64,000 bases of DNA from a phage. Under the pieces are notes generated by a model. It was given only the letters and a program-made list of their open reading frames with translations. It had not been told where the DNA came from and did no database searches. Each line of letters starts with the position of its first letter. The first letter of the stretch is position 1. Both the position numbers and the translations under genes were made by a program. Shown piece after piece: positions 4,590 to 59,348 of this stretch. The stretch lies in NCBI GenBank assembly GCA_024683775.1, contig GCA_024683775.1_4106.1; one strand, given 5' to 3'.

Positions 4590-7500
4590 ATGTATATCGA
4601 TGCTTATATGGAACGTAAACGTACTGGTGATATTTTGCACGTAGCAGAACGTAAAAACGGTAAACGTATTCTACGTCAGTTGGACCCAGTATATGAATAT
4701 TATGTTGAATCTCCTACTGGTGAACACAAAACAATTTATGGAACTAACGCAAAGCATTTGGAGTTTGAAACTCAATCACAGATGAATAAAAGCGTTGAGC
4801 AACATAAAAATGAAGGTCTACGTATTTTTGAAAGTGATTGCAACATTACCTTCAAAACGTTGGCTAGAGAATACATGGGTAAAGGTTCGCCGGATTTGAA
4901 CGTAGCATTTTTCGATATCGAAACAGACTTCCATAAGAAGTTTGGTTATGCTCCACCATCAGATCCATTCAACCGTGTAACTGCAATTTCTCTATATCAA
5001 TCATGGACTGGTAAGGATTATGTACTGACTTTGCCACCAACTGATATGGAAATGTACGAAGCACAAGATATTGTTCGTCAGTTAAACGAAGAAACTAACG
5101 ACCCTAACAGTACTGTCATCCTTTATACGGATGAGAAAGAAATGTTTATGGAGTTCTTTAGTCTAATCGATGACTCTGATGTAATTTCAGGTTGGAACAG
5201 TGAATTCTTTGATATTCCATATATGGTCAACCGTACCAAGAAAATCTTCAACGAAGCAACTACTGCTCGTTGGTGTTTGTGGAATAAAAAACCAAATGCT
5301 CGTGAAGCTGATAACTTTGGTAAAACTGTAGTAACATATGATCTTATTGGTCGTGTACACTTAGACTATCTTGCTCTTTATAAGAAACATGCTGGTCAAG
5401 TTGAACAGTCGTACAAACTAGATTATATTGCTGAAAAGGTAACTAAAGAAAACAAAGTATCCTATGAAGGTTCATTGGATAAACTATACCGTGAAGATTA
5501 TATTACATTCTTGCGTTATTCTAAGCAGGATAGTATTCTTCTAAAGAAAATTGATGCTAAATGTGACTTTATCAACCTGCACAACCGTCTTGCTCATAAA
5601 GAATGTGTACTAATTAGTACTACAATGGGTTCGGTTGCACTAATCGACACTGCTATCATCAACCTTGCTCACAGTCGCGGTGAAGTTGTTTTTAACAAAG
5701 CACCGAAAGATGATATTGAGATAGATCCAGAGATGGAGTACTATGGTGAAGAAGGTGATGAAGAAGATGAGAAAATCAGTGCAAAAGCTGCTGGTGCATG
5801 GGTTCAAGATCCAGTTCTTGGCCTTGTTAGCGATTTGGGATGTACAGACTTTAACTCATTGTATCCAACTGTACTACGTACACTTGGCATGAGTACTGAA
5901 TGTATTCTTGGACAACTTCGTCAAGACTACACTGATGCATATCTTGCTGCTAAAGTACAAGAGCAAAAAGCTAAATCCAAATCTAAAGCGTTTGAACCTG
6001 ATTGGACCGCTGCATGGCATGGTTTATTTGCTGCTGTAGAATTTACAATGGTTCATGAAAAATCTGACAAAACTTTGATTGTTGATTTAGAAGATGGTAG
6101 TTCGTTCAATGCAACTGGTAAAGAATTGTATGATATTATCTTTGCTGAAGACAGTACTATTGTACTAAGTGCTAACGGAACACTTTTTGATAAGTCTAAG
6201 TATGGTGTAATTCCAGATATTCTTACTCAATGGTATTCTGAGCGTAAAGCACAACAAAAAATGGTAATCGACTACAAACACATGTACAGTGATGGGTGGG
6301 AATTCAATGGTTCTGAGAAGGTTGAACCTTTGCTATCTAACTACACAAGTGGTACAATGTTCCGTACAAACTTACATGACAATGATCCTGTTTATCTATT
6401 ACGTATTGCTATTGGTAAAGGTCAATGGGAAGAAGTTGCAAAACTCATTGTGGAAAATGGTTTAGTACTGAAAGATGGTCGTATTTTCTGTGCAACGGAA
6501 GATAAGAATTACTTCAAACAGCAAAGTGCATTCTGGAAACAGAACCAGCAAATTCGTAAGATTCTTCTAAACAGTCTATATGGTGCACTATTGAACAAAG
6601 GTTCACGTTTCTTTGATAAGCGTTTAGGTCAGTCCGTTACCTTAACTGGTCGTTCTATGACTAAACATATGGCAAGCCGTATCAATGAAATCACTACTGG
6701 TGTTTATAATCACCAAGGTGGCTCTGTAATTTACGGTGATACTGACTCCGTTTACTTCAGTGTAACTCATTACCTGAAAGAACAAGGTATTCCATATAAT
6801 CTTTCTAAAGAAGAAATTGTTGACATGTATATCAAAATCGGTGATGAAGTTGGTGAATCATTCCCTTCATTCATGAACGAAATGTTCAATACTGGTATTG
6901 AGAAAGGTAAGATTGTTGGTGCAGACCTAGAGATGGTCGGTTCCCGTGGTCTATTCCTGAAGAAAAAGCGTTATGCAATTCTCAAGTACTGGGAAGATGG
7001 TTTCCGTAAAGATGTTGATGGAAAGCCTGGTGAAATTAAAGCGATGGGTCTTGAAATTAAACGTTCAGATACGCCAAAATACATCCAGAACTTCCTAGAA
7101 GAGACTCTAATTGCATTGCTGGTGGGTGAGTCTGAAGCTCAACTTAAACAGCGTGTACGTGACTTTAAAGAGGTATTTAAAGACATGCCTGTACACGAAA
7201 AGGGTTCACCGAAAACTGTTAAGAACTATACCAACTTAGAAGCAGAATATGAAGTTTCTGGTAAATGTAAAGTTGGTCACGTATTAGCAGGTATTCAATG
7301 GAACCGTCTACGTGAAGTATATGATGACAAAACTGTACCTGAAGTAACTGACGGTACAAAAGTAATTGTATGTAACTTAAAAGATAACCCGATGGGTATT
7401 AAAGCAGTAGGTTACCCAATTGACTGTGTGGAATATCTACCTGAATGGTTCTTAGAACTACCATTTGATACAGAGAAAATGGAAGAAATAGTTCTAACTA

Positions 7501-7595
7501 AAAAATTAGAAAACATTTTTGGTATTCTGGATATGGATATTGGTATTCATGAGAAAAGCACAGCAGCCGTTAATAACGGATTCTTCACCTGGTAA
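4590..7595 (+). CDS. DNA polymerase, family B (T4 gp43-like)
   Basis: 1001 aa; exonuclease motif FFDIETD, polymerase motifs KILLNSLYGAL and YGDTDSVYF. Confidence 0.9.
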   Translation: MYIDAYMERKRTGDILHVAERKNGKRILRQLDPVYEYYVESPTGEHKTIYGTNAKHLEFETQSQMNKSVEQHKNEGLRIFESDCNITFKTLAREYMGKGSPDLNVAFFDIETDFHKKFGYAPPSDPFNRVTAISLYQSWTGKDYVLTLPPTDMEMYEAQDIVRQLNEETNDPNSTVILYTDEKEMFMEFFSLIDDSDVISGWNSEFFDIPYMVNRTKKIFNEATTARWCLWNKKPNAREADNFGKTVVTYDLIGRVHLDYLALYKKHAGQVEQSYKLDYIAEKVTKENKVSYEGSLDKLYREDYITFLRYSKQDSILLKKIDAKCDFINLHNRLAHKECVLISTTMGSVALIDTAIINLAHSRGEVVFNKAPKDDIEIDPEMEYYGEEGDEEDEKISAKAAGAWVQDPVLGLVSDLGCTDFNSLYPTVLRTLGMSTECILGQLRQDYTDAYLAAKVQEQKAKSKSKAFEPDWTAAWHGLFAAVEFTMVHEKSDKTLIVDLEDGSSFNATGKELYDIIFAEDSTIVLSANGTLFDKSKYGVIPDILTQWYSERKAQQKMVIDYKHMYSDGWEFNGSEKVEPLLSNYTSGTMFRTNLHDNDPVYLLRIAIGKGQWEEVAKLIVENGLVLKDGRIFCATEDKNYFKQQSAFWKQNQQIRKILLNSLYGALLNKGSRFFDKRLGQSVTLTGRSMTKHMASRINEITTGVYNHQGGSVIYGDTDSVYFSVTHYLKEQGIPYNLSKEEIVDMYIKIGDEVGESFPSFMNEMFNTGIEKGKIVGADLEMVGSRGLFLKKKRYAILKYWEDGFRKDVDGKPGEIKAMGLEIKRSDTPKYIQNFLEETLIALLVGESEAQLKQRVRDFKEVFKDMPVHEKGSPKTVKNYTNLEAEYEVSGKCKVGHVLAGIQWNRLREVYDDKTVPEVTDGTKVIVCNLKDNPMGIKAVGYPIDCVEYLPEWFLELPFDTEKMEEIVLTKKLENIFGILDMDIGIHEKSTAAVNNGFFTW

Positions 7596-19818: not shown

Positions 19819-20637
19819 ATGACAAAATTAGATGAGTTCCTATCAAACGTATCAGTACTAGACACCGAAACAACTGGTGTCGAAAGTGAAGATGATATTA
19901 TTGAATTTAGTATTTCATATCCTCACGATGCACATGAGAATATTGATACTATTGATAACTACACTTTGCGTTATAAACCACTAAAAGATATACCACCAGA
20001 AGCAAGTGCTGTGCATTTTATCAGTACTGAAGATGTAGCAAACTGCATTGGTTATAAAGATGACTTAGAAAACATTGACGCACTAATGGGGTGTCGTAGT
20101 TATTTTATTGGACACAACGTTCAATTTGACCGCCGAATGATGGTAGATAATGAATATAAATATCGTAACTCAGTTTCGCAGTACTTGCTCGATGAAGATA
20201 AATGGATTTGTACCCTTCGTTTAGCTAAGAAGATGTTTGCAGAAGACACTGAATTCAAAAACTTAACTCTAAGTTATTTGTGGTATAAATTTGGTTGCTA
20301 TCGTGACGTACATCGTGCAGTGAATGCTCACGCAGCAAAAGATGACGTATTCATGTGTTACCAAGTTCTAATCAAATTGATTGAAGTTGCGATTGAACGT
20401 GGACATATTGACCCTAATGGTGACATTGGTGAACAAATCGTAACATTCTGTAATACACCAATGCGTTATAAATTCATGCCATTTGGTAAACACAAAGGCG
20501 AACCAATGGAAACTGTTCCATTGAACTATATTGAATGGATGATTACTAACAGTGATATCCTTGATGCAAGTAACCCAAACTGTGATAAAGATTTAGTATA
20601 TACATTTGAGTACGAATATAATACTCGAACTAATTAA
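19819..20637 (+). CDS. DnaQ-like DEDDh 3'-5' exonuclease
   Basis: Exo I LDTETTG, Exo II GHNVQFD, Exo III H...D (HRAVNAHAAKDD). Confidence 0.65.
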   Translation: MTKLDEFLSNVSVLDTETTGVESEDDIIEFSISYPHDAHENIDTIDNYTLRYKPLKDIPPEASAVHFISTEDVANCIGYKDDLENIDALMGCRSYFIGHNVQFDRRMMVDNEYKYRNSVSQYLLDEDKWICTLRLAKKMFAEDTEFKNLTLSYLWYKFGCYRDVHRAVNAHAAKDDVFMCYQVLIKLIEVAIERGHIDPNGDIGEQIVTFCNTPMRYKFMPFGKHKGEPMETVPLNYIEWMITNSDILDASNPNCDKDLVYTFEYEYNTRTN

Positions 20638-23977: not shown

Positions 23978-24668
23978 TCCCGTATACAAATGTAAGTTCT
24001 GTGATAAAGAATTTAAACGCGAAGACACAGTTAACACACATAAGTGTGTTAAACGTGACCGCTATGAAGATCGTGATAGCCGCCCCATGAGGGAGGCTTT
24101 TCGCATTTATATGCAATTCATGGAGTTAAACCATTTCCCTTTCAAGAAGGGAGTTGAACCATTAATGGCTTTTATAAAATCAAAGTACTTTAGTGATTTT
24201 TATGATTTTGCAATTTATTATTTGAACAACCGTGATATTTTAGATATTGATGGTTTTGTAAAAAGTCTAATTGTAAGAAACCGTCCTATTATGGAATGGA
24301 GTACTTATAAAGCAAAGGATGAATGGATATTAGATTGTATTCGTTCAGAATCTCCCAATGCTGCGGTTTCCCGTAGTGTTGTTGCGATGGTGGAATGGGG
24401 TCAGAATCTGAACTTGGAGTGGAATAAGTTTTTTTCCAATGTGAGTTCTGCCCGTGCAATTGCATGGATTGAGAGTGGTAAGATTTCACCTTGGATTATC
24501 TGGTTAGCACCAAAAGAAAGTACTAATAAGTTTTTCAAGAATCTCTCTAACTCTGAAATCGAGTATATACTTAAATACATTGATCCTAGTTACTTTGAGG
24601 TTAAAACTATAAAGTACAAAAAGGAATGTGATGAAATAAAAAGTATGCTACGTGAGGCTGGATTATGA
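23958..24668 (+). CDS. hypothetical protein with N-terminal C2H2-like zinc finger
   Basis: YKCKFCDKEFKREDTVNTHKC motif. Confidence 0.4.
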   Translation: MAKKSSSPVYKCKFCDKEFKREDTVNTHKCVKRDRYEDRDSRPMREAFRIYMQFMELNHFPFKKGVEPLMAFIKSKYFSDFYDFAIYYLNNRDILDIDGFVKSLIVRNRPIMEWSTYKAKDEWILDCIRSESPNAAVSRSVVAMVEWGQNLNLEWNKFFSNVSSARAIAWIESGKISPWIIWLAPKESTNKFFKNLSNSEIEYILKYIDPSYFEVKTIKYKKECDEIKSMLREAGL

Positions 24669-24994
24669 ATGGAAAAAGTATATATAATAAAATACCAGAA
24701 GGGTATGTACCTGTGCCTAAAGCAGATAAATCTAAATCTTTATCATTGCTTAGACAGGGTTCTATAACTGAAATTACACTTGATGGTAAAACCTTTCAGG
24801 TGCACGATCCTGTTCGTGTAGAAAAAATTATCAGTATGGTTGAAAGACATGAGGAAAGATTCTTTGGTCTAAGTCAAGAGTTGTCAAAGACCAAACAAAA
24901 GTGTACAATGTTAGAAAATCAGGTAACCAAATTATCTAACACTGTAAACAAATTGCAGGAGCAAATCAAAAATGCAGGATTCGACAAATTCTAA
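24665..24994 (+). CDS. hypothetical protein
   Basis: 109-aa ORF with C-terminal coiled-coil-like segment. Confidence 0.4.
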   Translation: MNGKSIYNKIPEGYVPVPKADKSKSLSLLRQGSITEITLDGKTFQVHDPVRVEKIISMVERHEERFFGLSQELSKTKQKCTMLENQVTKLSNTVNKLQEQIKNAGFDKF

Positions 24995-25610
24995 TTCGTA
25001 CCGTAAAGCACGAACAGATATCGACATTGACTTCAAAGATAGTAAGTCAGTGATTGCACAGCTTCCTTGTGTGCGAAGTACAGAAAAAATTACGGAGGAT
25101 GGTTTAATCCCCCATAACAGTGGTGTTCATTTTGATAATATACCAATTGACCCTATCACTGGTTTAGCCAGCATACAATATAAAGAAGCCGAACGCTTGG
25201 GATATCAAAAGGTAGATATCCTGTCACAATCGGCTTACCAGTATGTTCGTGATAGAGCACATTTAAAAGAACTAATGAATCAGGAACCTAATTGGGATCT
25301 TCTGTTAGAACCAGAAATAGTTGAACATCTTTCACAGATTAAAAAACACGTTACATTATTAAATGTGTGGAAACCTAAATCCATTGATGAACTTGCAATG
25401 TTTATTGCAATGATTCGTCCTGGAAAAAGGCAGTGCCAAAGTATGAATACATGGAGTGAAGTTGAATCCACTATATGGGATTACAGTACTATTGGCACAG
25501 ACCAAGCAGGAAATAAGTTACGATATTTCAAAAAGCCACATGCGTATGCATACAGCTTAATGATTGTAGTTCAACTTAACGCTTTAGTTGAACATCTTAC
25601 TTCTTCTTAA
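24972..25610 (+). CDS. DnaE-like (Pol III alpha) palm-domain fragment, C-terminal half
   Basis: TDIDIDF resembles the DnaE catalytic PDFDVDF; IDELAMFIAMIRPG vs DnaE FEDMIALVALFRPGP; HAYAYSLM vs SHSAAYALV; GGAG RBS. Confidence 0.45.
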   Translation: MQDSTNSNSYRKARTDIDIDFKDSKSVIAQLPCVRSTEKITEDGLIPHNSGVHFDNIPIDPITGLASIQYKEAERLGYQKVDILSQSAYQYVRDRAHLKELMNQEPNWDLLLEPEIVEHLSQIKKHVTLLNVWKPKSIDELAMFIAMIRPGKRQCQSMNTWSEVESTIWDYSTIGTDQAGNKLRYFKKPHAYAYSLMIVVQLNALVEHLTSS

Positions 25611-25950
25611 GAGCCACATTACGACGCTTGATGCGTTTTTGTGGCAAATCACTTAAAGAAACTACTGGACCACAAACGAAATTCACCGCAGGGGTATCGA
25701 ATCTCTGTGTGTAAGGTTCAAATTTCTCCATCTCTTCTTGGAAGAATAGACAGACTGGAATTGACCTGTTGCTTTGCCACCACCAATCATGTGCTATACC
25801 CAACAATTCATCTTGCATTGGTTCATCCATATCATCAAAGCAGTAAAGAGTAGTATACTGTTTACTTTTTATCTTGATAATACCAATGAAAGTTTTACCA
25901 TCACACTGAACTACCGTGATAAATGGTGGAATAGTATTATATTGATTCAT
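25597..25950 (-). CDS. hypothetical protein (lone minus-strand gene)
   Basis: 117-aa ORF with basic C-terminus; TATAAAT elements in the divergent upstream region. Confidence 0.4.
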   Translation of the reverse strand: MNQYNTIPPFITVVQCDGKTFIGIIKIKSKQYTTLYCFDDMDEPMQDELLGIAHDWWWQSNRSIPVCLFFQEEMEKFEPYTQRFDTPAVNFVCGPVVSLSDLPQKRIKRRNVALKKK

Positions 25951-25958
25951 ATGAGTTC

Positions 25959-25982
25959 CATAAATATTAGTATAAATTTATA
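25959..25982. promoter_or_regulatory. divergent late-promoter-like region with 12-bp palindrome TATAAATTTATA
   Basis: cATAAATAtta at 25959-25969 and the perfect palindrome at 25971-25982 lie between divergent starts at 25950 and 26008. Confidence 0.4.
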
Positions 25983-26007
25983 CCTATTATTTATGGAAGG
26001 AAAAACT

Positions 26008-26985
26008 ATGGCTCATCACGGCGTGTTTATGTACCCTTATAACCAAGAAGTATCATTGGGCAATTTTAATATGCCATATAGCAATGAGAAACTTACAATA
26101 TACAGAGGTGCAAATAACAATTTATCATTCACAGTGCATAACGCTGATGGAAAATATACATTACTAAAAGATAACGAATATCTAACATTCATGATTTTTG
26201 ATGCTAGAAACAATACTAAATTATTCGATGTAGTTTTGGATAAACAAAAACCATCATGGCTATCAGAAAGTGGACAAGCAAGACAAACATTAGGCAATAG
26301 TAAAAAAGTATATTATGGATGTATTGTTCCTGCTGGTGTAATTCAGGATACTAGTCCTGGTTCAAAATATAGATGGAGTATTACTAAAGTAACAATGGAT
26401 GGTTCCTTGATTGAACCTACACAGTACTTATACACTGGTCTTGATTATGAAGCCTCTGCTGAATTGATCATTTCCGACCAAGCTGCTCCTGTGTTTGTGC
26501 CAAGTATTGAAGTATCTGTTAATAAAAACCCAGCATGGACTACCATCAAACGCTTGTATCATGAACCAATCGCTCGTGGCGTTATTGGTGAATTTGATAT
26601 AATGGCAACATCTCCCCTTCCTGCACAAATGCAGTACGGATTAGTTGATGGTCTTAGTACTATTGCAATGTACTTTGATAAATTCATTGGTAGAATTCAA
26701 TTACAAGGATGTTTGTGTAATAACGTACCAACTGATAACGAAAACTATAAATGGTTTATTGTTAAATTGGATGGTAAAGAATATATCGAAAATGATATTG
26801 ATGAAAATGGATTCCCTAAAGCGTTAGATGGGATTCAAGCATTTAATTTTAAAGGTAATTACATGTGGTTGCGATTGGTTGTTTGTATTCATCCTAAGAT
26901 CGTTCCAGTTCCTTATGACTATGCGGCAGTAAGAAAAGTCTATGACCCACTACTGTCAGTTCCTAAAATTTTGATTCGCAGGTGA
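26008..26985 (+). CDS. hypothetical late protein (probable structural)
   Basis: 326-aa ORF from ATG 26008 with GGAAGG RBS; the track ORF from 25774 extends upstream without RBS. Confidence 0.45.
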   Translation: MAHHGVFMYPYNQEVSLGNFNMPYSNEKLTIYRGANNNLSFTVHNADGKYTLLKDNEYLTFMIFDARNNTKLFDVVLDKQKPSWLSESGQARQTLGNSKKVYYGCIVPAGVIQDTSPGSKYRWSITKVTMDGSLIEPTQYLYTGLDYEASAELIISDQAAPVFVPSIEVSVNKNPAWTTIKRLYHEPIARGVIGEFDIMATSPLPAQMQYGLVDGLSTIAMYFDKFIGRIQLQGCLCNNVPTDNENYKWFIVKLDGKEYIENDIDENGFPKALDGIQAFNFKGNYMWLRLVVCIHPKIVPVPYDYAAVRKVYDPLLSVPKILIRR

Positions 26986-27011
26986 GACAAAACAAGTGTT
27001 TGTGCTATAAT
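26982..27011 (+). promoter_or_regulatory. promoter with GAGACAAAC-type -35 box
   Basis: gtGAGACAAAac at 26982-26993, 18-nt spacer, tgcTATAAT with TATAAT at 27006-27011. Confidence 0.5.
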
Positions 27012-27040
27012 CATTTGTGAGAAATAACAAGGATTAAATT

Positions 27041-28096
27041 ATGAACGCTGTACAAAACATCATGGCACAAATCATGAATGACCCAGTACCAGGAATTGGT
27101 ATGTGGACACATCACAATTGTCCTGCTTGTGTGTTCCGTGGTCATTCACGCCCCGATACTAAAAATCGCGGCAATCATATGTTTAACGCAGATGGTTCTG
27201 TTTCTTATAACTGTTTTAACTGTAGTCTAAAAACTGGGTGGCAACCTGGAAAATATATGAGCAAAGATATGGAGTCTTTGCTCATTTCTTTTGGTGCACA
27301 GGATAAGGAAATAGAACTAGCTAAATTTTACATTAAAGAAATGGTTGATAGTGGAGACTTTGCAGAACAAGAAACTACTGCATCTAAACTATATCAACGT
27401 GTAACTGTTCGTGAATTACCACCGAACTCAAAAACATTTTGGGAATGGGCATCGTTACCAGAAGAGCAAATACCACAAGAATTTATTAGTGTTCTGAATC
27501 ATGTGAATGAGCGAAATCCATATCTATTAGATTTAGAATTGTATTGGAGTCCAGCTAAAGAACATAAAATGTATGACCGATTTATCATACCATACGTTAT
27601 GAACGGTAAAATTATCGGATATACTGCTAGACACAAACTTAAAGACCCAGGAAGTACCTATCGTTTTATTAATCAGGTCAGTACTAATATTCTATATAAT
27701 TATGATCTGTTACAAGATGAACGAATTAAAACTATATTAGTTTGTGAAGGTCCAATGGATGCAGCACTAATGGGTGGTGTTTCTGCAAATAACTTTAAAT
27801 TGTCAGCAGTACAAATAGATGTACTTAAAGCTGCACAAGAAAAAGGTAAAAAGATTGTTATCGTACCAGACCGTGATAAGGATGGATTACAAACAATCGA
27901 ACAAGCACTAGAATATGGATTTAGTGTTTCTTTCCCAGATTTTGGGGCAGTACGTGTTGGAAGTACTATACGTCACATTAAAGATTTTGACGAAGCATGT
28001 GCTAGATTTGGAAGATTATTTTGTTTACAACTGATACATGATAGTATAGTTGACGAGCCTTTCTATATTAAAGCACAAACGGATAAGTGGATGTAA
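27041..28096 (+). CDS. DNA primase (T4 gp61-like)
   Basis: N-terminal zinc-binding HNCPAC...CFNC, Toprim-like LVCEGPMDA. Confidence 0.75.
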   Translation: MNAVQNIMAQIMNDPVPGIGMWTHHNCPACVFRGHSRPDTKNRGNHMFNADGSVSYNCFNCSLKTGWQPGKYMSKDMESLLISFGAQDKEIELAKFYIKEMVDSGDFAEQETTASKLYQRVTVRELPPNSKTFWEWASLPEEQIPQEFISVLNHVNERNPYLLDLELYWSPAKEHKMYDRFIIPYVMNGKIIGYTARHKLKDPGSTYRFINQVSTNILYNYDLLQDERIKTILVCEGPMDAALMGGVSANNFKLSAVQIDVLKAAQEKGKKIVIVPDRDKDGLQTIEQALEYGFSVSFPDFGAVRVGSTIRHIKDFDEACARFGRLFCLQLIHDSIVDEPFYIKAQTDKWM

Positions 28097-28122
28097 CACA
28101 GGATATAAATGAGGGAACATAA

Positions 28123-29643
28123 ATGATTCAAAGCACAGTGGACGTCAAACAGTATGGGATTAATGCACAACAATACTTACTATCCCAAGTTTTCAGTAAT
28201 CCAGATTTATTTGTACGTTGTAAAAATATTCTAAAGCCAGAATATTTTGATAAAACATTTCATGAAAGTATTCAGTACGTTCATGATTATGCAGCAAAAT
28301 ATAGTTCATCCCCTACACTGAAAGATATCGAAGTGAAAGGTGGTTATCAGTATGATCATTATGAAGTACAAGAACTTCATAAACAGGCAGTACTGGATAC
28401 CTGTAGTGAGTTTTGCCGTCACAAAGCTCTAGCTCTAGCAGTAGAGAAAGGTATGGAATTAGTACATCAGAAAAAATATGGTGGCATCGAAGAACTCATT
28501 CGTGAAGCTATGTTAGTATCTGTACAGAATGAGTTGGGTCTTGATATCTTTGAAAATCCAGAAGATACCATTCGTTCATTGAGCACTATGCAAGGTTCAT
28601 TCAAGAGTGGATGGGAAACCCTTGACTATAAACTATTCGGTGGTTTTGGTCGCCGTGAACTTGAAATCTTTGCAGCCGCGTCTGGTGGTGGTAAATCAGT
28701 AGTACTACAGAACTTAGCAGTTAACTTTGCTAAGGCTGGTATGAATGGTGCATACATTTCACTAGAACTAGCAGAAGAGTTGGTAGCCGTTCGTATCTAT
28801 GGTATGATGACTGAATCTAAGCTAAGTAACGTTAAGAACGAAGCTGAAAAGATTGGTCTACGAGTTCAAATGGAAGGCAAGGATAGTGGTATATTGCGTA
28901 TTAAACGTTTACCAGAATCCGTAACAACCACTGATGATATTGAAAGTTATCTTCGTGAATTGCAAATTAAAATGGAAGTCAAATTAGATTATGTTTGTGT
29001 GGACTACCTTGACCTATTAACATCAAATCGTCTTGGTCCTAATGATAAATCTAATACATTTACAAAAGATAAATTTGTATCTGAAGAATTGCGTGCACTA
29101 GCAACCAAAATGGATTTGACCGTCTTCACTGCGTCACAGTTTAACCGTAGTGGTATGGATGAAGATAAGAAAAGTCAAAGTCAGATTGCTGGTGGTATTT
29201 CTAAAATCTATACTGCGGATAACGTTATCTACATTGAAGCACGTAAAGAAACTGGCGAACTTTGGTTTGACTTCCAGAAAACACGTAACAGTAGTGCAGT
29301 TGGTTCACGTTTGCGTATGTCATATGATATCGATTCACTTCGTGTACTAGACCACGCAACCACAATCCAACAATTCGAAACTGATGGGTCAGGATTCCGT
29401 CACAGTGGCATCTCTAAGGTCGGCGGTGGTAACATGGCAATGCCACCAAGTACAATGCAAACACTGCGTCATACGCTTTCTGGTGCTCCTAAACCAAGCA
29501 CTACACCGAGTGTTGAAAGCGTAACACTAAATACAGATAGTGATCCAATCACTTCTACACAAACTGAATCCCAGCCTCAACAGCCTCACATTGGTACTGA
29601 TCGTGTAAATGCAATGAAGCAATGGTTAAATCAAAGGAAATAA
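28123..29643 (+). CDS. replicative DnaB-family helicase (T4 gp41-like)
   Basis: Walker A AAASGGGKSV in a RecA-fold context; 506 aa. Confidence 0.8.
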   Translation: MIQSTVDVKQYGINAQQYLLSQVFSNPDLFVRCKNILKPEYFDKTFHESIQYVHDYAAKYSSSPTLKDIEVKGGYQYDHYEVQELHKQAVLDTCSEFCRHKALALAVEKGMELVHQKKYGGIEELIREAMLVSVQNELGLDIFENPEDTIRSLSTMQGSFKSGWETLDYKLFGGFGRRELEIFAAASGGGKSVVLQNLAVNFAKAGMNGAYISLELAEELVAVRIYGMMTESKLSNVKNEAEKIGLRVQMEGKDSGILRIKRLPESVTTTDDIESYLRELQIKMEVKLDYVCVDYLDLLTSNRLGPNDKSNTFTKDKFVSEELRALATKMDLTVFTASQFNRSGMDEDKKSQSQIAGGISKIYTADNVIYIEARKETGELWFDFQKTRNSSAVGSRLRMSYDIDSLRVLDHATTIQQFETDGSGFRHSGISKVGGGNMAMPPSTMQTLRHTLSGAPKPSTTPSVESVTLNTDSDPITSTQTESQPQQPHIGTDRVNAMKQWLNQRK

Positions 29644-54028: not shown

Positions 54029-54038
54029 TTATAAACAG

Positions 54039-54068
54039 GGAAGACCTTTATGGGTCTTCCTTGTCCTT
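54039..54068 (+). terminator. rho-independent terminator
   Basis: GGAAGACC-TTTATG-GGTCTTCC then TTGTCCTTT. Confidence 0.5.
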
Positions 54069-54070
54069 TA

Positions 54071-54080
54071 TATAAATAAT
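54071..54080 (+). promoter_or_regulatory. late-promoter-like element TATAAATAAT
   Basis: Exact TATAAATA 39 nt upstream of ATG 54117. Confidence 0.4.
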
Positions 54081-54116
54081 CTATAGATAATGGTAGCTTG
54101 GCTATGGAGAATTATA

Positions 54117-56513
54117 ATGACAACTTTTACCCCTAGATGGGATATAAAAGCCGATGCTCGATATATACAAGAAGGACAAGACATTCTTGTGCGTTTGAGT
54201 ATCAACAAAGAAACCACAACGGATGATAGTTATATACTTAATGAAAACGAATACTTAGAGATGATTCTAACTATTCAGGGTTTGGACAGTTCTGATGCAG
54301 TATTTCAACCAGAAGATCACTACGCAGTGTATGTTGGTAATGATGAATCTAATCTCACACCTATATCATCAGGTATTACTGGTAACAAGTTGATTAATGG
54401 TAAGCACAAATGTAAAATTGATAAAACTCAATTTGATCTATCGGCAAGCACTAATACCGAAGATGTTTATTTTATTAAATTGCATTGTAAAGATGATGGT
54501 ACATTTAACAACTCTGAACAGATTAACTTCTATCTTCAAGCAGTAAATGTTATGTACTATGGTAACATTTCCCCTAGTGGTGAAATTGGTTCAAATGAAG
54601 TAACAATTGAATATGATAGTCAGGAAGTGTGGGTTACTCCTGGAATCGAAATCGGTGATGATGACAAATTATATTGTATTGGTGATATTGAATACGGTTC
54701 CAACAGTACTTTATTTGTACAGGGATTTGGTCGTCGTCGTCCATTTATTTTAGGAACTGATACATCAACTGACATATCTCCTAGAGTATTTTATCCAGCG
54801 TATCGTCTACTCGATATGACCCCAGCAGAAGTTCCTGCTCGCCACATCACTGATGATTATGCAATCCTACGTCCTATTGATAATATATGGCCTGTATTTG
54901 GTATTAATAAAGAAATTAAGGTTAATATTCAAACTAGCTCTGGAGAGTTACTAGATTCAGGATTGGTTTTCAACCCAAATGGACAATTTCTGCAAACATT
55001 CCTATATGACTCTGATGCATGTGATGCATATTTCAAAGTTGAAATTGTTGATATTTTGAGTACATATAGTTATGACACTGACCGCTTCGCTATAAACCAA
55101 CGTTTCAAAGCATATCAAATGTGGGTATGTCCAGACAATGTAGATGGTATATACGCTGATGGTGATAAACCTTTACCTAATCATTTGTATCAGTTGAAAG
55201 ATAACGTTGTATATCCATATGTAATCTCTGGTGAATATGATCTAGGTGAAACAAAGCCAGTGTTTAAAAGTTCAGATTGGATTGATTTAGGATATTATGA
55301 TTCAAGCTTAGGTGAGAATATTATAGGTGAAGAGAAGATGTTCCGTGTTCTAGTGAACGCAGAAGAAGAAAACTCAATAGACTTCACAACTGATAGTGAT
55401 TTAGGTAGTATTCATGTGGGTGAATATTTCGGTCACAGTACTTATCCACAAATACAAACTACCAGTACTAATCAGGTATCTTATGTATTAGATGGTGGGC
55501 CTGATGATATTCGCAAATATGGTTTGGACCTCACCGCAGATGGGTTCTTGGTCGGAACTGCATATGCAAAAAGTTTAGATTTCAGTGCAAATGATGATAT
55601 AAAATTGGAATTCAACATCAAAGCATATGACACTGAAGGTGGTGTTGCGTCCAAGTTATTTAAACTGAAAATTGTACGTGGTTTTGGACAAAACTACTTA
55701 AGTGCACATATTGTACCTTCTGTTTATTTTGAACGTGAATGGTTTAAGTGTATTAGTACACCATCATTTACAAAACAAGCTTTCCATCGACAATCAGATG
55801 ATAGATACGGGTTACAAAAAGTACCACGTATTCTATTAAAAGAAAACTTTTTGAGTCAGAACTATACTTACACTACGTTGAGTGATATTAAAAAAGTACT
55901 TAGGGAAAATATCATAAACCAAACTGGTGCAACTATACCTGATGGAAAATTTAGAATGGTAATGGGCAACTATAAAGTAATGTCAGCACTTGACAACCAA
56001 GGTAACTTGCAGTATGATATATTATACCGTGAAGTTTTACCCGCAGGTTCATTGGTGTCGGTTTCTAAGAATCCAAGAAGTTACACGCAAATTGATAACG
56101 GAACACTCGGTGAAATATTTGGCTTGCGTCAAAATATTTTTGCAGCAATTGGCGAAGACACAACTAACCTTGTGAAAGACCCAACTGATTTACAAAACCG
56201 TGGTTTGTATGTAGATGCTATACCAGGAATTTCTGATGAGATGCTAGATACTGTTCCTCGCTTCATGAATCACCCATACGAAGAAGATGGAGTTAAAAAG
56301 AAATTCATGCCAATCATTCCAGTTGCATACTGTGCACCAGGAAAGGGTGAAGCATTCTTTAACACTTTACTTCAGAACAATGAACATGGTAAGATGGTTG
56401 GTGTTGAGTTTGAAATCACAGGAGTTGAATTTGGATTCTTTGCACATGAATTCGAAAACTACGTTCATGATACATTTTTGATTTCATTACAAAACAGCAA
56501 TTTAGGAGGATGA
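54117..56513 (+). CDS. large hypothetical late protein (probable virion/baseplate protein)
   Basis: 799 aa from ATG 54117 with GGAG RBS; late-type element upstream. Confidence 0.5.
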   Translation: MTTFTPRWDIKADARYIQEGQDILVRLSINKETTTDDSYILNENEYLEMILTIQGLDSSDAVFQPEDHYAVYVGNDESNLTPISSGITGNKLINGKHKCKIDKTQFDLSASTNTEDVYFIKLHCKDDGTFNNSEQINFYLQAVNVMYYGNISPSGEIGSNEVTIEYDSQEVWVTPGIEIGDDDKLYCIGDIEYGSNSTLFVQGFGRRRPFILGTDTSTDISPRVFYPAYRLLDMTPAEVPARHITDDYAILRPIDNIWPVFGINKEIKVNIQTSSGELLDSGLVFNPNGQFLQTFLYDSDACDAYFKVEIVDILSTYSYDTDRFAINQRFKAYQMWVCPDNVDGIYADGDKPLPNHLYQLKDNVVYPYVISGEYDLGETKPVFKSSDWIDLGYYDSSLGENIIGEEKMFRVLVNAEEENSIDFTTDSDLGSIHVGEYFGHSTYPQIQTTSTNQVSYVLDGGPDDIRKYGLDLTADGFLVGTAYAKSLDFSANDDIKLEFNIKAYDTEGGVASKLFKLKIVRGFGQNYLSAHIVPSVYFEREWFKCISTPSFTKQAFHRQSDDRYGLQKVPRILLKENFLSQNYTYTTLSDIKKVLRENIINQTGATIPDGKFRMVMGNYKVMSALDNQGNLQYDILYREVLPAGSLVSVSKNPRSYTQIDNGTLGEIFGLRQNIFAAIGEDTTNLVKDPTDLQNRGLYVDAIPGISDEMLDTVPRFMNHPYEEDGVKKKFMPIIPVAYCAPGKGEAFFNTLLQNNEHGKMVGVEFEITGVEFGFFAHEFENYVHDTFLISLQNSNLGG

Positions 56514-56514
56514 T

Positions 56515-56826
56515 ATGTTCAATCCATTTTTTGATCCATCAACCATGACCGAGAAAGAGTTACAATTGAAAATTAACGAACAATCGATGCGTATTACGTC
56601 TGCTCGTGCAGCAGGTATGAGTGATATGATTGTTGGTAACATGCAAACCGTTCTGAATCAGTGCTATGCTGAATTAGAGATTCGTCAGGGACAAAAAGAA
56701 AAAACCTCCTATGATGAGCAAGACCCATGTATATTTGACATGAACTCTTACTTAACGGATAACGAAGAGGATCAGAAGAAGAAAAATGAAAGTACAAGGA
56801 AACAGATTTATAAGTCCCAATGGTGA
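56515..56826 (+). CDS. hypothetical protein
   Basis: 103-aa ORF. Confidence 0.4.
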   Translation: MFNPFFDPSTMTEKELQLKINEQSMRITSARAAGMSDMIVGNMQTVLNQCYAELEIRQGQKEKTSYDEQDPCIFDMNSYLTDNEEDQKKKNESTRKQIYKSQW

Positions 56827-57304
56827 TGTAAAATGTAACCTTAATGCAGTCGTGTATGCAATCAACTGTGGTGCAGATATTCAGTACTTACAGCTACAGG
56901 AGATTGATGAACCGGAACGATTGAAATTTAACGATAATTGTAAAAAATTTGGTTTAGAACAGCGTATGCTGGATTATACAATAGAACATGATAAAAACCA
57001 TGAGCTATGGCGTTATGATCCAGTGTACGATAACATCAACTTGCGTGAGTACTTTTTACAGAAATGTACATCGGATGAAGCCCGTGAACGTGTAATGTAT
57101 GAGATTGATTTGTTTGAACATTACAACATGACTAAGCTTTTAAGATGTATGATCTGGTTAGTTGATTATATGGAAGAGCACAATATTTTTTGGGGTCTTG
57201 GGCGTGGTAGTTCAGTGGCTTCGTATTGTTTGTTCCTGATTGATTTGCATATGGTTGATTCTTTGAAGTATAAACTAGATGTAAATGAATTTTTGAAATG
57301 GTAG
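56786..57304 (+). CDS. DnaE-like (Pol III alpha) palm-domain fragment, N-terminal half
   Basis: WGLGRGSSVASYCLFLIDLHMVDSLKYKLDVNEFL resembles DnaE [34 protein letters not shown]; ends just before where the catalytic Asp pair would lie. Confidence 0.45.
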   Translation: MKVQGNRFISPNGDVKCNLNAVVYAINCGADIQYLQLQEIDEPERLKFNDNCKKFGLEQRMLDYTIEHDKNHELWRYDPVYDNINLREYFLQKCTSDEARERVMYEIDLFEHYNMTKLLRCMIWLVDYMEEHNIFWGLGRGSSVASYCLFLIDLHMVDSLKYKLDVNEFLKW

Positions 57305-57344
57305 AAAAACATGTGATATAATGTTGTTTGAGGCGTTATATCAC
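57293..57344 (+). promoter_or_regulatory. promoter (TTGAAA, 18-bp spacer, TGtgaTATAAT) embedded in a 9-bp inverted repeat
   Basis: -10 at 57317-57322; GTGATATAA at 57313-57321 and TTATATCAC at 57336-57344 are perfect inverted repeats. Confidence 0.45.
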
Positions 57345-57367
57345 TCACATAGAAAAAGGATTTTTAT

Positions 57368-57712
57368 ATGTCAAAACACACAACTTATCGTGGAACCACC
57401 ATTGATATGGATATGCTAAAGTATCAAAACCAGCACCAAGTAGCACTAGGTAATGCAAACCTAAATGCTCGTGGTGATAAGATTGGTTCAGGTGGTACGG
57501 TCATTAAAACCCGTGAAGAACTAATCCAAGAAAAAGAACGTGAAATGCAAATTCCTGATTTCATTCCTGAACACCAACTTCACAGTGCTGAATATAGTAC
57601 TGAAGAAGTATGGGATGATGAAAGCTTTGAAGTTCAACCACAAGAACCAGAAGTTGAAGTATCTGAAGAGAAGAAAGCTCCACGCCGAGCAAAAACTAAA
57701 GATCAGGAGTAA
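57368..57712 (+). CDS. hypothetical protein
   Basis: 114-aa ORF. Confidence 0.4.
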   Translation: MSKHTTYRGTTIDMDMLKYQNQHQVALGNANLNARGDKIGSGGTVIKTREELIQEKEREMQIPDFIPEHQLHSAEYSTEEVWDDESFEVQPQEPEVEVSEEKKAPRRAKTKDQE

Positions 57713-57715
57713 TTC

Positions 57716-58042
57716 ATGACCAATAAAGTAATGACAGCTTGTAAAGGTAAAGTTATTGTAACTGAACTAGAACATGGTGAGCGTAAAACCGCAGGTGGTA
57801 TTGTACTGACAAGTGATGATGGTAAGATACGTGGTATTCGTTGTCGTTGGGCTAAAGTATATTCTGTTGGTGAAGACATTACCGATATCAAAGAAGGACA
57901 ATGGATTCTAATTGACCACGGTCGTTGGTCGAGAACTATTGAGATTGATGGTATTAAAATGAATCTCGTTGATTATCCAGCAGCAGTAAGTTTGGTATCT
58001 GACACTGATCCACGCATCTCTGCTCAAACATTTGGTCGTTAA
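57716..58042 (+). CDS. GroES-like co-chaperonin (Cpn10 family)
   Basis: GKVIVTELEHGERKTAGGIVLTSDDGK closely parallels GroES [27 protein letters not shown]. Confidence 0.7.
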   Translation: MTNKVMTACKGKVIVTELEHGERKTAGGIVLTSDDGKIRGIRCRWAKVYSVGEDITDIKEGQWILIDHGRWSRTIEIDGIKMNLVDYPAAVSLVSDTDPRISAQTFGR

Positions 58043-58053
58043 AACATAAATCT

Positions 58054-58086
58054 AAAGCTCGGATATATTATCTGGGCTTTTTATTT
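58054..58086 (+). terminator. rho-independent terminator
   Basis: AGCTCGGAT-ATATT-ATCTGGGCT (with G-U pairs) then TTTTTATTT. Confidence 0.5.
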
Positions 58087-58098
58087 GGATGAAAATAC

Positions 58099-58368: not shown

Positions 58369-58394
58369 ACACCTAATATACAAGGAAATAAAAC

Positions 58395-59348
58395 ATGACT
58401 ACATTATGGACTGAAAAATACCGCCCACAAACTATGGAAGATTATGTATCTAAGAACGAAGCCCTACGTCAGAAGATGGAAGAATGGATTCGTACTGGTG
58501 ATATCCCACATATTGGATTTTTTGGACCAGCAGGGACAGGTAAAACTTCAGCAATCAAAGTACTACTGAATGGTCTGGAAGCTAACGGACACCTTGACCC
58601 TAGTGATGTAACAACACTGAATATGTCAGATGAAGGTATCGATGCTGTTCGTGACAAAATTGATGCAGCAGCAAAACTATCATGTTTTGGTCGTTATCGT
58701 GTATTTGTTCTGGAAGAAATGGAACAAATGAACCACAAAGCACAGGGTAGCTTGAAACGTGTCATGGAAGATTACCATGAAAATGCTCGTTTCATTCTTA
58801 CCAGTAATGAACCACATAAGATTCAGAAACCTATTATCTCTCGTGTTCAGGTCATCACCATTGAGAAGCATGATATGGAACAATTCATGTCACGCATCTA
58901 CAACGTACTATTGGCAGAAGGAGTAGATCTAAGTACTGATGAAAGTATTGAACAAGTACAAAAATACATCAATGTTTCATATCCTGATTTCCGCAAAACG
59001 CTAAACGTATTGCAAAGTTCAGTAGTCGATGGTAAACTTGTAAAGCTTGAAGACAGTATTGAGAACTCTGCTGGGTATCGTACTGCCATTATTGATGCAC
59101 TAAAAGCTGGTAACATTCGTCAAATGCGTGAGCAGATCGTGCAAAACATTCCTGATGATGAGATGGATGCATTCTTCTCTTATCTGTATCGTAATGCAGA
59201 AATGTTCAGTACTGATGAAATTACTCTAATGAAAATTAAGGTTAAGATTCGTGACGCTGTTGTTAAACAAGCTACCGTGTCTGACCGTGAAATGAATCTC
59301 AGTGCATTACTGTGTGAGATTGACCTAATCTGTTCGGGGAACATGTAA
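58395..59348 (+). CDS. clamp-loader ATPase (RFC-like; T4 gp44-like)
   Basis: EKYRPQTMEDYV, Walker A FFGPAGTGKTS, LTSNEPHKI sensor region. Confidence 0.85.
   Translation: MTTLWTEKYRPQTMEDYVSKNEALRQKMEEWIRTGDIPHIGFFGPAGTGKTSAIKVLLNGLEANGHLDPSDVTTLNMSDEGIDAVRDKIDAAAKLSCFGRYRVFVLEEMEQMNHKAQGSLKRVMEDYHENARFILTSNEPHKIQKPIISRVQVITIEKHDMEQFMSRIYNVLLAEGVDLSTDESIEQVQKYINVSYPDFRKTLNVLQSSVVDGKLVKLEDSIENSAGYRTAIIDALKAGNIRQMREQIVQNIPDDEMDAFFSYLYRNAEMFSTDEITLMKIKVKIRDAVVKQATVSDREMNLSALLCEIDLICSGNM

What the first reader, a model, noticed from the sequence alone, without database searches (positions are those of the whole stretch)
24972..25610. Miniature DnaE-like polymerase core, C-terminal half
This 212-aa ORF begins almost exactly at a DIDIDF motif resembling the catalytic aspartate pair of Pol III alpha (PDFDVDF). 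It then follows DnaE landmarks in order in a much compressed form: HNSGVHFDN, QYKEAERLGYQKVDIL, IDELAMFIAMIRPG, HAYAYSLM. The phage already has an intact family-B polymerase. The matching N-terminal half is 31 kb away at 56786-57304 and ends precisely where this ORF begins in the DnaE alignment. That pattern fits a split C-family polymerase-like protein, or two degenerate remnants of one.
Basis: inference. Interest (0 to 1): 0.7.

Follow-up and report, generated by a model that had tools for sequence, protein, structure and literature searches.

The report
Split miniature Pol III polymerase core

Summary
ORF 24972-25610 (212 aa) and ORF 56786-57304 (172 aa) are the C- and N-terminal pieces of a miniature C-family (Pol III alpha/DnaE-like) polymerase core.

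- **N-half:** passes Pfam's DNA_pol3_alpha threshold.
- **Joined halves:** align across the junction with DnaE, with the break falling between ...ERFL and the PDxDxDF catalytic strand.
- **Conservation:** the acidic residues D16/D18/D20 and D82, and the GRGSS nucleotide-binding loop, are invariant down to about 30-40% identity.
- **Selection:** both genes are under strong purifying selection (dN/dS 0.04-0.12), so they are not remnants.
- **Arrangement:** the split and the separation (14-224 kb) are conserved across Rak2-like, PA5oct-like and Atu_ph07-like jumbo phages.
- **Single-chain forms:** two rare metagenomic proteins carry both halves in one chain.
- **Missing parts:** there is no intein, PHP, thumb, clamp-binding or OB domain.

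This is the "split minimal DNA polymerase III alpha" reported for group 2.2 jumbo phages by Iyer et al. 2021 (Viruses 13:63), and many GenBank records already annotate both genes. The most likely mechanism is a non-covalent two-chain nucleotidyltransferase that acts as an accessory to the phage family B replicase. Activity and role are untested.

The parts
24972..25610 (+). C-half of the split mini Pol III alpha (212 aa). It holds the Mg2+-binding strands of the palm plus a shortened fingers region.
25017..25031 (+). DIDID strand (D16, D18, D20). It aligns with the PDFDVDF / PDIDIDF motif of DnaE, E. coli D401/D403/D405.
   Evidence: Invariant in 27 and in 69 homologs. Aligned to Mtb DnaE1 PDIDIDF. 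Predicted beta-strand 17-21. hhalign places the register two residues off, so the register is taken from the phmmer alignment and the motif pattern.
25206..25223 (+). QKVDIL strand with K80 and D82. These are the proposed equivalents of E. coli K553 and D555 in LVKFDFLGL, D555 being the third catalytic Asp.
   Evidence: D82 is invariant and K80 invariant or nearly so. Predicted strand 80-85. The correspondence rests on colinear manual mapping onto the E. coli sequence and is an inference.
25413..25427 (+). IRPGK block (R149, P150, K152), matching the fingers motif ...ALFRPGP of DnaE (E. coli 637-642).
   Evidence: Invariant R149, P150, K152. Aligned to Mtb 641-674, to E. coli 607-642, and to Pfam finger profile 55-88.
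25527..25553 (+). FKKPHAYAY block (K187, H190, Y194), matching the NKSHSAAYA motif of DnaE (E. coli 757-765).
   Evidence: H190 and Y194 invariant, K187 nearly so. Aligned to Mtb 774-787 FNKSHAAGY. E. coli positions.
56786..57304 (+). N-half of the split mini Pol III alpha (172 aa). It holds the helical N-terminal part of the palm and the nucleotide-binding GS loop.
   Evidence: ORF. Pfam PF07733 36.4 bits, above the gathering cutoff. NCBIfam DnaE models align residues 58-170 with about 280-390. phrog_11127. AF2 pLDDT 85.9. The 11 best Foldseek hits are all Pol III alpha. dN/dS about 0.06.
57191..57226 (+). WGLGRGSSVASY, equivalent to GPGRGSGAGSLV of DnaE (E. coli 359-368). This is the Pol-beta-like 'GS' triphosphate-binding loop.
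   Evidence: G137, G139, R140, G141, S142, S143, V144, S146, Y147 are invariant in 29 and in 60 homologs. Aligned to E. coli and Mtb. pLDDT is lower here (73) when the half is folded alone.
57287..57304 (+). Conserved end of the N-half (EFLKW plus stop). This is the split point, corresponding to E. coli FERFL-N (388-393).
   Evidence: All homologs end at or just after EFLK. Junction-spanning alignments. There are no intein sequences and no recombination repeats.
4590..7595 (+). Context: family B DNA polymerase (1001 aa) with its own 3'-5' exonuclease domain. This is the presumed main replicase.
   Evidence: PF03104 1.3e-22 and PF00136 3.7e-21.
27041..29643 (+). Context: primase (27041-28096) and DnaB-like helicase (28123-29643), in conserved synteny 1.4 kb downstream of the C-half.
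   Evidence: Annotation of fEgEco12. DnaB_C Pfam hit. Same gene order in PA5oct.
58395..59348 (+). Context: clamp-loader AAA+ subunit, in conserved synteny 1.1 kb downstream of the N-half, following a GroES-like gene at 57716-58042.
   Evidence: Annotation. Same gene order in PA5oct. A clamp-loader-like gene sits about 2 kb downstream of the N-half in the distant metagenomic locus L004.

Best explanation
The two ORFs are the two chains of one miniature C-family (Pol III alpha-like) polymerase core.

The N-half (172 aa) supplies the helical part of the palm and the GRGSS triphosphate-binding loop. The C-half (212 aa) supplies the strand with the DxDxD metal ligands, a beta-hairpin, the strand with the third Asp, and a shortened fingers region (RPGK and KxHxxxY blocks). 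The break falls inside the Pol-beta-like nucleotidyltransferase fold, between the GS-loop helices and the first catalytic strand. Neither chain can therefore hold a complete active site.

The chains most likely associate non-covalently after translation from separate genes (there is no intein) to rebuild a two-metal nucleotidyltransferase site. The enzyme has no PHP domain, thumb, clamp-binding motif, OB fold or tau-binding region, so it is expected to have low processivity and no proofreading. I expect it to serve as an accessory polymerase beside the phage's T4-like family B replicase. Each gene sits in a conserved replication neighbourhood: the C-half beside primase and helicase, the N-half beside the clamp loader.

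Shown here: homology of both halves, the conserved split point, conservation of all catalytic-type residues, purifying selection, co-occurrence, and the existence of single-chain versions. Inferred: heterodimer formation, catalytic activity, DNA as substrate, and the biological role.

The confidence of 0.65 applies to the whole statement, including the inferred assembly into an active site. That the pair is a genuine, selected, split Pol III alpha-like core is about 0.95.
For: - **Homology of the N-half:** Pfam above threshold, NCBIfam DnaE models, PDB profile hits to E. coli, Mtb and Taq Pol III alpha, Foldseek.
- **Junction:** alignments of the joined sequence run straight through it, and the Pfam score rises from 36.4 to 44.1 bits.
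- **Conserved residues:** D16, D18, D20, H48, G51, D82, R149, P150, K152, H190 and Y194 in the C-half, and G137 to S143 in the N-half, are invariant.
- **Selection:** dN/dS 0.04-0.12 for both halves.
- **Family size:** 548 clusters at 50% identity match the C-half profile. Of the 150 best listed, all but two are short standalone proteins of 231 aa or less (one more, 233 aa, carries an unrelated C-terminal extension).
- **Single-chain forms:** P0287 (375 aa) and P0370 (336 aa) align with the joined window sequence in one HSP (E 1e-57 and 5e-35). In both, the Pfam match crosses the junction.
- **Co-occurrence:** both halves occur in the same cultured phage genera in nearly identical record counts and are always separated by 14-224 kb.
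- **Synteny:** microsynteny with primase-helicase and with GroES plus clamp loader is kept between Rak2-like phages and PA5oct.
- **Folding alone:** the GS-loop segment of the N-half has lower confidence and forms no strand when folded alone, as expected if it needs the C-half.
- **Independent reading:** Iyer et al. 2021 reached the same interpretation.
Against: - There is no experimental evidence for association or activity.
- Large functional parts of real Pol III alpha are missing. The thumb is deleted: 27 residues separate the DxD strand from the HxxG hairpin, against about 105 in E. coli. E. coli residues 643-756 of the fingers, including the YQEQ and LRRAMGKK regions, are replaced by about 33 residues (manual mapping). 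Template-directed DNA synthesis is therefore not assured.
- E. coli R390 (FERFL) aligns with an almost invariant Glu (E168) in the phage family.
- The genes are far apart and no shared promoter signal could be shown.
- The phage already has a complete family B replicase, so no replicative need is evident.
Confidence: 0.65

Rival explanations
1. The pair forms an active nucleotidyltransferase that is not a template-copying DNA polymerase. It could be a template-independent terminal transferase, an enzyme that extends or processes primers, or a maker of a nucleotide-derived product.
For: - Only the Pol-beta-like core and a reduced fingers region remain. The thumb and about 110 residues of the fingers, which grip duplex DNA and the incoming nucleotide in Pol III alpha, are gone (secondary structure).
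- The Pfam finger domain falls below threshold (13.7 against 22 bits).
- The Pol-beta-like fold supports many non-replicative transferases (general knowledge).
- The phage already has a full family B replicase.
Against: - The retained finger motifs (RPG, KxHxxxY) are specific to C-family polymerases and are invariant.
- All structural neighbours are replicative PolC/DnaE enzymes, not other Pol-beta-fold transferases.
- The genomic neighbours are replisome genes.
- A single-chain relative sits directly behind a plasmid or phage 'Replicase' gene.
Confidence: 0.2
2. The two proteins act separately and without catalysis, for instance as binders or decoys of host or phage replisome parts. They would merely descend from a polymerase.
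For: - The genes are 14-224 kb apart in every cultured phage examined.
- Each sits in a different conserved neighbourhood.
- No common regulatory signal was found.
Against: - The invariant residues are exactly the catalytic-type ones: the DxDxD strand, the third Asp and the GRGSS loop. They are split between the chains, which makes sense only if an active site is rebuilt.
- The two halves co-occur almost perfectly.
- Single-chain forms exist.
Confidence: 0.08
3. The ORFs are decaying remnants of a captured dnaE gene.
For: - The CBB genome paper described the 172-aa protein as 'truncated'.
- Most Pol III alpha domains are missing.
Against: - dN/dS is 0.04-0.12 while dS is near saturation.
- Both ORFs stay intact, at constant length, in about 100 phage records and hundreds of metagenomic clusters spanning 28-100% identity.
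- Catalytic-type residues are invariant.
- Both AF2 models are confident.
Confidence: 0.02
4. The halves are covalently joined after translation by a split intein, as in cyanobacterial DnaE, or the genes are joined by a DNA rearrangement.
For: The only well-known split dnaE, in cyanobacteria, uses trans-splicing inteins (from memory: Wu, Hu & Liu 1998).
Against: - The N-half ends at EFLKW with no extra sequence. The C-half has only 15 residues before the DIDID strand.
- No Hint or intein family was hit even at E up to 10.
- The joined sequence aligns with DnaE with only a 9-residue insertion.
- The two junctions share no repeat of 11 nt or longer.
- The C-half lies upstream of the N-half on the same strand, so a simple deletion could not fuse them in the right order.
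Confidence: 0.01

Closest known systems
Split minimal DNA polymerase III alpha of 'group 2.2' jumbo phages (Iyer, Anantharaman, Krishnan, Burroughs & Aravind, Viruses 2021;13:63, section 3.4.1 and Fig. 3b)
   Same: This is the same thing. It is a phage-specific minimal Pol III alpha catalytic module, split into an N-terminal NTP-binding protein and a C-terminal Mg2+- and template-binding protein. The two are encoded by distant genes in jumbo phages that also carry a family B polymerase and a T4-like replisome. The window is 99.8% identical to sequenced Rak2/121Q-type coliphages in which both genes are annotated as DNA polymerase.
   Different: There is no difference in kind.
- dN/dS estimates.
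- The exact split point relative to E. coli numbering.
- Conserved microsynteny with primase-helicase and with the clamp loader.
- Two rare single-chain forms in metagenomes.
Bacterial replicative C-family polymerases (DnaE / Pol III alpha, PolC)
   Same: It has a Pol-beta-like palm with the GS loop, a DxD strand and a third Asp. It keeps the RPG and KxHxxxY finger motifs, and the fold matches.
   Different: The two chains total about 384 aa, against 1000-1450 aa in the bacterial enzymes. There is no PHP domain, thumb, clamp-binding motif, HhH, OB fold or tau-binding domain, and the fingers are shortened by about 110 residues. The protein is split in two. E. coli R390 is replaced by an almost invariant Glu.
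Cyanobacterial split DnaE joined by a split intein (Synechocystis/Nostoc dnaE-n and dnaE-c; from memory)
   Same: A dnaE-type polymerase is encoded by two distant genes.
   Different: The cyanobacterial halves carry intein fragments and are spliced into one full-length chain, and the split lies far downstream (around residue 775). Here there is no intein. The split falls at about E. coli residue 393, inside the catalytic palm, and the product is a miniature core.
Split family B polymerases of some T4-like phages (gp43 encoded as two genes; from memory)
   Same: A phage polymerase is encoded as two separate polypeptides that assemble non-covalently.
   Different: Those belong to a different polymerase family (B, with an RRM-like palm). 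Their pieces are adjacent genes and together make up a full-size replicase.

Membership tests
C-family DNA polymerase catalytic core (Pol III alpha; Pfam PF07733 NTPase/palm) | Significant match to the DNA_pol3_alpha profile | tested here: met
   N-half 36.4 bits against a cutoff of 23.9. Joined N+C 44.1 bits, spanning the junction.
C-family DNA polymerase catalytic core (Pol III alpha; Pfam PF07733 NTPase/palm) | Pol-beta-like GS (GxGRGS) triphosphate-binding loop | tested here: met
   GLGRGSS at N-half 137-143, invariant in 60 homologs. Aligned with E. coli G359-S364.
C-family DNA polymerase catalytic core (Pol III alpha; Pfam PF07733 NTPase/palm) | Acidic catalytic triad, E. coli D401, D403, D555 (assignment from memory: Pritchard & McHenry 1999) | tested here: met
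   D16 and D18 (plus D20) align with PDIDIDF / PDFDVDF. D82 in KVD maps colinearly to KFD555. All are invariant. The register of the DxDxD repeat is ambiguous by two residues in hhalign.
C-family DNA polymerase catalytic core (Pol III alpha; Pfam PF07733 NTPase/palm) | Three-dimensional fold of palm and fingers | tested here: met
Full-length replicative Pol III alpha / PolC | N-terminal PHP domain | tested here: not met
   No PHP hit at E up to 10. The N-half aligns from about DnaE residue 280 onward.
Full-length replicative Pol III alpha / PolC | Thumb domain between the two palm segments | tested here: not met
   Only 27 residues lie between DIDID (16-20) and HNSG (48-51), against about 105 between E. 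coli D405 and H511.
Full-length replicative Pol III alpha / PolC | Complete fingers domain (PF17657 above threshold) | tested here: not met
   13.7 bits against a cutoff of 22, with only profile positions 55-88 matched. E. coli 643-756 corresponds to about 33 residues here.
Full-length replicative Pol III alpha / PolC | Clamp-binding, HhH, OB-fold and tau-binding C-terminal regions | tested here: not met
   The C-half ends about 18 residues after the KxHxxxY motif, near E. coli residue 785. No such Pfam domains were hit.
Full-length replicative Pol III alpha / PolC | DNA-templated polymerase activity | not testable with these tools
   No biochemical data were found in the held literature.
Split minimal Pol III alpha of group 2.2 jumbo phages (Iyer et al. 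2021) | Two standalone proteins: an N-terminal NTP-binding part and a C-terminal Mg2+/template-binding part | tested here: met
   Description.
Split minimal Pol III alpha of group 2.2 jumbo phages (Iyer et al. 2021) | The two genes are distant from each other in the genome | tested here: met
   31.8 kb in the window and 14-224 kb in other phages. The C-half is absent within 10 kb of the N-half in L003-L005.
Split minimal Pol III alpha of group 2.2 jumbo phages (Iyer et al. 2021) | Accompanied by a family B polymerase and a T4-like replisome in a jumbo myophage | tested here: met
   PolB at 4590-7595. Primase, DnaB-like helicase and clamp loader. The window matches 350-385 kb Asteriusvirus-type genomes.
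Intein-split DnaE (cyanobacterial type) | Split-intein fragments at the break that allow trans-splicing | tested here: not met
   No intein or Hint hits. There is no spare sequence at either side of the junction.

The most novel reading that the evidence does not exclude
The pair is an active two-chain minimal C-family polymerase that works as a second, dedicated polymerase in the phage replisome. It might extend primers next to the primase-helicase, or copy one strand, possibly proofread in trans by the standalone DnaQ-like exonuclease at 19819-20637. That would give these jumbo phages a two-polymerase (B + C family) replisome. It would also provide the smallest natural C-family polymerase, a model for the ancestral enzyme, with an active site assembled across two polypeptides.
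Probability: 0.3. Interest if true: 0.75.

Novelty: already known. Interest (0 to 1): 0.35.

Why it matters
If the two chains really rebuild an active site, this would be the smallest known C-family polymerase, and one whose catalytic fold is split between two polypeptides. That would help define the minimal requirements of the bacterial replicase fold. It would also bear on arguments about how that fold originated, and on how jumbo phages with a T4-like family B replisome use a second polymerase. The idea and the gene pair are already published (2021). What remains open is the biochemistry and the biological role, not the existence of the feature.

Tried and rejected
- **Co-folding the halves.** A MAFFT alignment of the fused query with separate halves misaligned the N-halves onto the C-half. 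The halves were therefore folded separately.
- **Sequence-only detection of the C-half.** The profile against PDB gave only E 1.4 with colinear fragments. hhalign against the E. coli fingers segment gave probability 7%. hhalign of the joined profile covers only E. coli 320-419 and shifts the DxDxD register by two residues. The case for the C-half therefore rests on the structure search and on conserved motifs.
- **Promoter and terminator scans.** Counts around both genes are at shuffle level. The T4-late-like TATAAATA motif is not enriched. Co-regulation could not be assessed.
- **PA5oct omics paper.** It gives no gene-level timing for the homologs in its main text.
- **More single-chain forms.** A search seeded with P0370 returned only standalone C-halves.
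- **Intein and rearrangement readings.** Both were rejected.
- **Later experimental work.** The 2026 jumbo-phage review does not mention the pair, and no other paper in the library combines the search terms.
Full report
**What is there**

The window comes from a Rak2/121Q-type jumbo coliphage. It is 99.7-99.8% identical over the tested stretches to Escherichia phages EC.P1, WPEC5, fEgEco12 and others, and about 84% identical to 121Q and PBECO4 of the genus Asteriusvirus. Each has its own ATG and a plausible Shine-Dalgarno sequence. Each overlaps the end of the preceding gene, by 23 nt and 41 nt respectively. The quoted motifs sit at 25017-25031 (DIDID), 25113-25124 (HNSG), 25206-25223 (QKVDIL), 25413-25427 (IRPGK) and 25527-25553 (FKKPHAYAY). 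A complete family B polymerase with an exonuclease domain lies at 4590-7595.

**Is it a C-family polymerase piece?**

The N-half passes Pfam's curated threshold for DNA_pol3_alpha (36.4 bits against 23.9, E 5.8e-9). Its match stops at profile position 95 of 260. NCBIfam DnaE models align residues 58-170 with DnaE residues of about 280-390.

By sequence alone the C-half is only marginal. The finger domain gives E 0.04. The profile against PDB gives E 1.4, although its four fragments are colinear with M. tuberculosis DnaE1: DIDIDF with 413-424, RPG with 630-673, and KxHAxxY with 774-787.

Three further results settle the question.
- When the two proteins are joined in silico, phmmer aligns them with Mtb DnaE1 331-424 straight through the junction, as ...LFERFL / NPERTSMPDIDIDFDDRR.
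- hhalign does the same with E. coli DnaE 320-419.
- The Pfam score rises to 44.1 bits, and the match now runs to profile position 112.

**Anatomy relative to E. coli DnaE**

This mapping combines the alignments above with manual colinear mapping onto the E. coli sequence. Domain names and catalytic assignments come from my knowledge of Lamers et al. 2006 and Pritchard & McHenry 1999.

| Phage residues | E. coli DnaE equivalent |
|---|---|
| N-half WGLGRGSSVASY | GPGRGSGAGSLV, 359-368 (the Pol-beta-like GS loop) |
| N-half end EFLKW | FERFLN, 388-393 |
| C-half TDIDIDF | PDFDVDF, 400-406 (D401, D403) |
| C-half PHNSGVHF | KHAGGVVI, from 510 |
| C-half GYQKVDIL | GLVKFDFL, 550-557 (K553, D555) |
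| C-half FIAMIRPGK | LVALFRPGP, to 642 |
| C-half FKKPHAYAY | FNKSHSAAY, 756-764 |

Several parts of the full enzyme are absent:
- the PHP domain;
- the thumb (27 residues against about 105);
- about 110 residues of the fingers, since E. coli 643-756 corresponds to about 33 residues here;
- everything beyond about residue 785, which covers clamp binding, HhH, the OB fold and tau binding.

The break lies inside the nucleotidyltransferase core. The GS loop and its helices are on one chain. The metal-binding strands (predicted strands 17-21, 34-41, 44-53 and 80-85) are on the other. When folded alone, the GS-loop segment of the N-half forms no strand and has reduced confidence (pLDDT 73). This fits a segment that needs its partner to fold.

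**Conservation, selection and distribution**

In alignments that reach 40% identity for the C-half and 28% for the N-half, the invariant residues are as follows:
- C-half: D16, D18, D20, H48, G51, D82, R149, P150, K152, H190, Y194.
- N-half: G137, G139, R140, G141, S142, S143, V144, S146, Y147.

Every N-half ends at or just after EFLK. Every C-half starts a few residues before DIDID. The split point is therefore ancient and fixed.

Nei-Gojobori dN/dS between the window, 121Q and RaK2 orthologs is 0.04-0.12 for both genes, with dS near saturation. This excludes decaying remnants.

A full HMMER scan of 1.84 billion cluster representatives with the C-half profile found 548 hits. Of the 150 best listed, all but two are short standalone proteins of 231 aa or less; one further hit (P0375, 233 aa) carries an unrelated C-terminal extension.

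In the phage collection, 96 records carry a C-half and 101 match the N-half; a few of the latter are true full-length DnaE genes in Clostridium and Bacillus phages. Genus counts are nearly identical between the two halves. The separation between the halves varies by phage group:

| Phage group | Separation |
|---|---|
| Xoo-sp13, Stenotrophomonas CM1 | about 14 kb |
| Rak2-like phages | 31-34 kb |
| PA5oct-like phages | 44 kb |
| Atu_ph07 | 182 kb |
| Sinorhizobium phage Phosso | 224 kb |

In distant metagenomic jumbo-phage contigs, the C-half is not within 10 kb of the N-half.

**Single-chain versions**

Two representatives carry both halves in one chain. P0287 is 375 aa and comes from a 2.4-kb ENA contig (L006). 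P0370 is 336 aa and comes from an 8-kb JGI contig (L007). Each aligns with the joined window sequence in one HSP across the junction (E 1e-57 and 5e-35). Each keeps the GS loop, the acidic strand, the third Asp, RPGK and KxH. In both, the Pfam palm match crosses the junction. P0370's gene overlaps the stop of a PF03090 'Replicase' gene, which points to a role in replication. A search seeded with P0370 found no further single-chain relatives, so such forms are rare. Whether they are ancestral or secondary fusions is open.

**Neighbourhood**

The order C-half, small convergent ORF, virion structural protein, primase, DnaB-like helicase is kept between this phage and PA5oct, whose C-half is only 40% identical. 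So is the order N-half, small ORF, GroES, then clamp loader. A clamp-loader-like gene also lies about 2 kb downstream of the N-half in the distant locus L004. Each half has therefore stayed within its own replication-gene cluster. Promoter and terminator scans were uninformative.

**Mechanism**

No intein is present: there were no Hint hits at E up to 10 and there is no spare sequence at the junction. There is also no repeat that could drive a rearrangement. The C-half lies upstream of the N-half, so a deletion could not fuse them in the right order.

The best-supported mechanism is therefore non-covalent assembly of the two chains into one Pol-beta-like two-metal nucleotidyltransferase site. 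Because the thumb, the clamp-binding motif and any exonuclease are missing, I expect a distributive, non-proofreading enzyme that acts as an accessory to the family B replicase. Its role could be primer extension, synthesis of one strand, or repair.

This is an inference; activity and partnership are untested. The main rival (about 0.2) is an active transferase that does not copy templates. Independent non-catalytic roles (about 0.08), remnants (0.02) and intein splicing (0.01) are poorly supported.

**Comparison with what is known**

This feature has been published. Iyer, Anantharaman, Krishnan, Burroughs and Aravind (Viruses 2021;13:63) describe it for 'group 2.2' jumbo phages. [quoted passage not shown]

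The CBB genome paper had already noted the 172-aa 'truncated' Pol III alpha. Both PHROG families are labelled 'DNA polymerase', and several GenBank records annotate both genes accordingly. I found no experimental follow-up in the held literature.

The pair meets every tested feature of that published class. It meets the catalytic-core features of C-family polymerases, but fails the features of a full-length replicative Pol III alpha: PHP, thumb, complete fingers, C-terminal domains and a single chain. It is not an intein-split DnaE.

**Verdict**

The feature is real and biologically interesting, but it is already known.

Noticed in passing
window 19819-20637 (+): A standalone DnaQ-like 'DNA polymerase exonuclease subunit' (phrog_192, E 5e-60; annotated 'exodeoxyribonuclease X' in fEgEco12) lies 4.3 kb upstream of the C-half. 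The family B polymerase has its own exonuclease domain, so this could be a trans-acting proofreader for the exonuclease-less mini Pol III. This is speculative.
   Followed up: partly
window 25597-25950 (-): A small convergent ORF (117 aa, phrog_11637, unknown function) overlaps the 3' end of the C-half by 14 nt. A same-sized ORF in the same orientation follows the C-half in 121Q, RaK2 and even PA5oct.
   Followed up: partly
window 24665-29643 and 56515-59348: Virion structural protein genes are interleaved with replication genes around both halves. Examples are 24665-24994, about 25790-26985 and 54090-56513, next to primase, helicase, GroES and clamp loader. The arrangement is conserved in PA5oct, where the structural calls rest on ESI-MS/MS.
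   Followed up: no
window 54035-54078: A terminator-like hairpin (54035-54064) is followed directly by TATAAATA (54071-54078, like a T4 late promoter), 12 nt before the virion structural gene at 54090. The next terminator-like site on the + strand is at 58054-58080, so the N-half may be carried on that transcript. The motif is not enriched in the window: 3 found against 7.2 expected.
   Followed up: partly
window 57293-57322 (+): A near-consensus sigma-70-like promoter (TTGAAA, 18 nt spacer, TATAAT with an upstream TG; 11 of 12 matches) overlaps the stop codon of the N-half. It lies upstream of the unknown gene 57368-57712.
   Followed up: no
L007 1516-4181: In an 8-kb metagenomic contig, a single-chain mini Pol III alpha (P0370, 3171-4181) overlaps the stop of a 552-aa protein with a PF03090 'Replicase' domain and an HTH. 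This may be a two-gene replication module of a small mobile element.
   Followed up: partly
N-half residue 168 (window 57287-57289): E. coli DnaE R390 (FERFL) aligns with a Glu that is invariant in the 29-sequence N-half alignment and nearly invariant in the 60-sequence one (E168, EFLK). This is a systematic charge reversal next to the split point, and its meaning is unknown.
   Followed up: no
N-half residues 1-57 (window 56786-56956): The first 57 or so residues of the N-half (two short strands and two helices in the model) lie upstream of the region that aligns with DnaE. They matched no family and are poorly conserved between the Rak2-like and distant clades.
   Followed up: no
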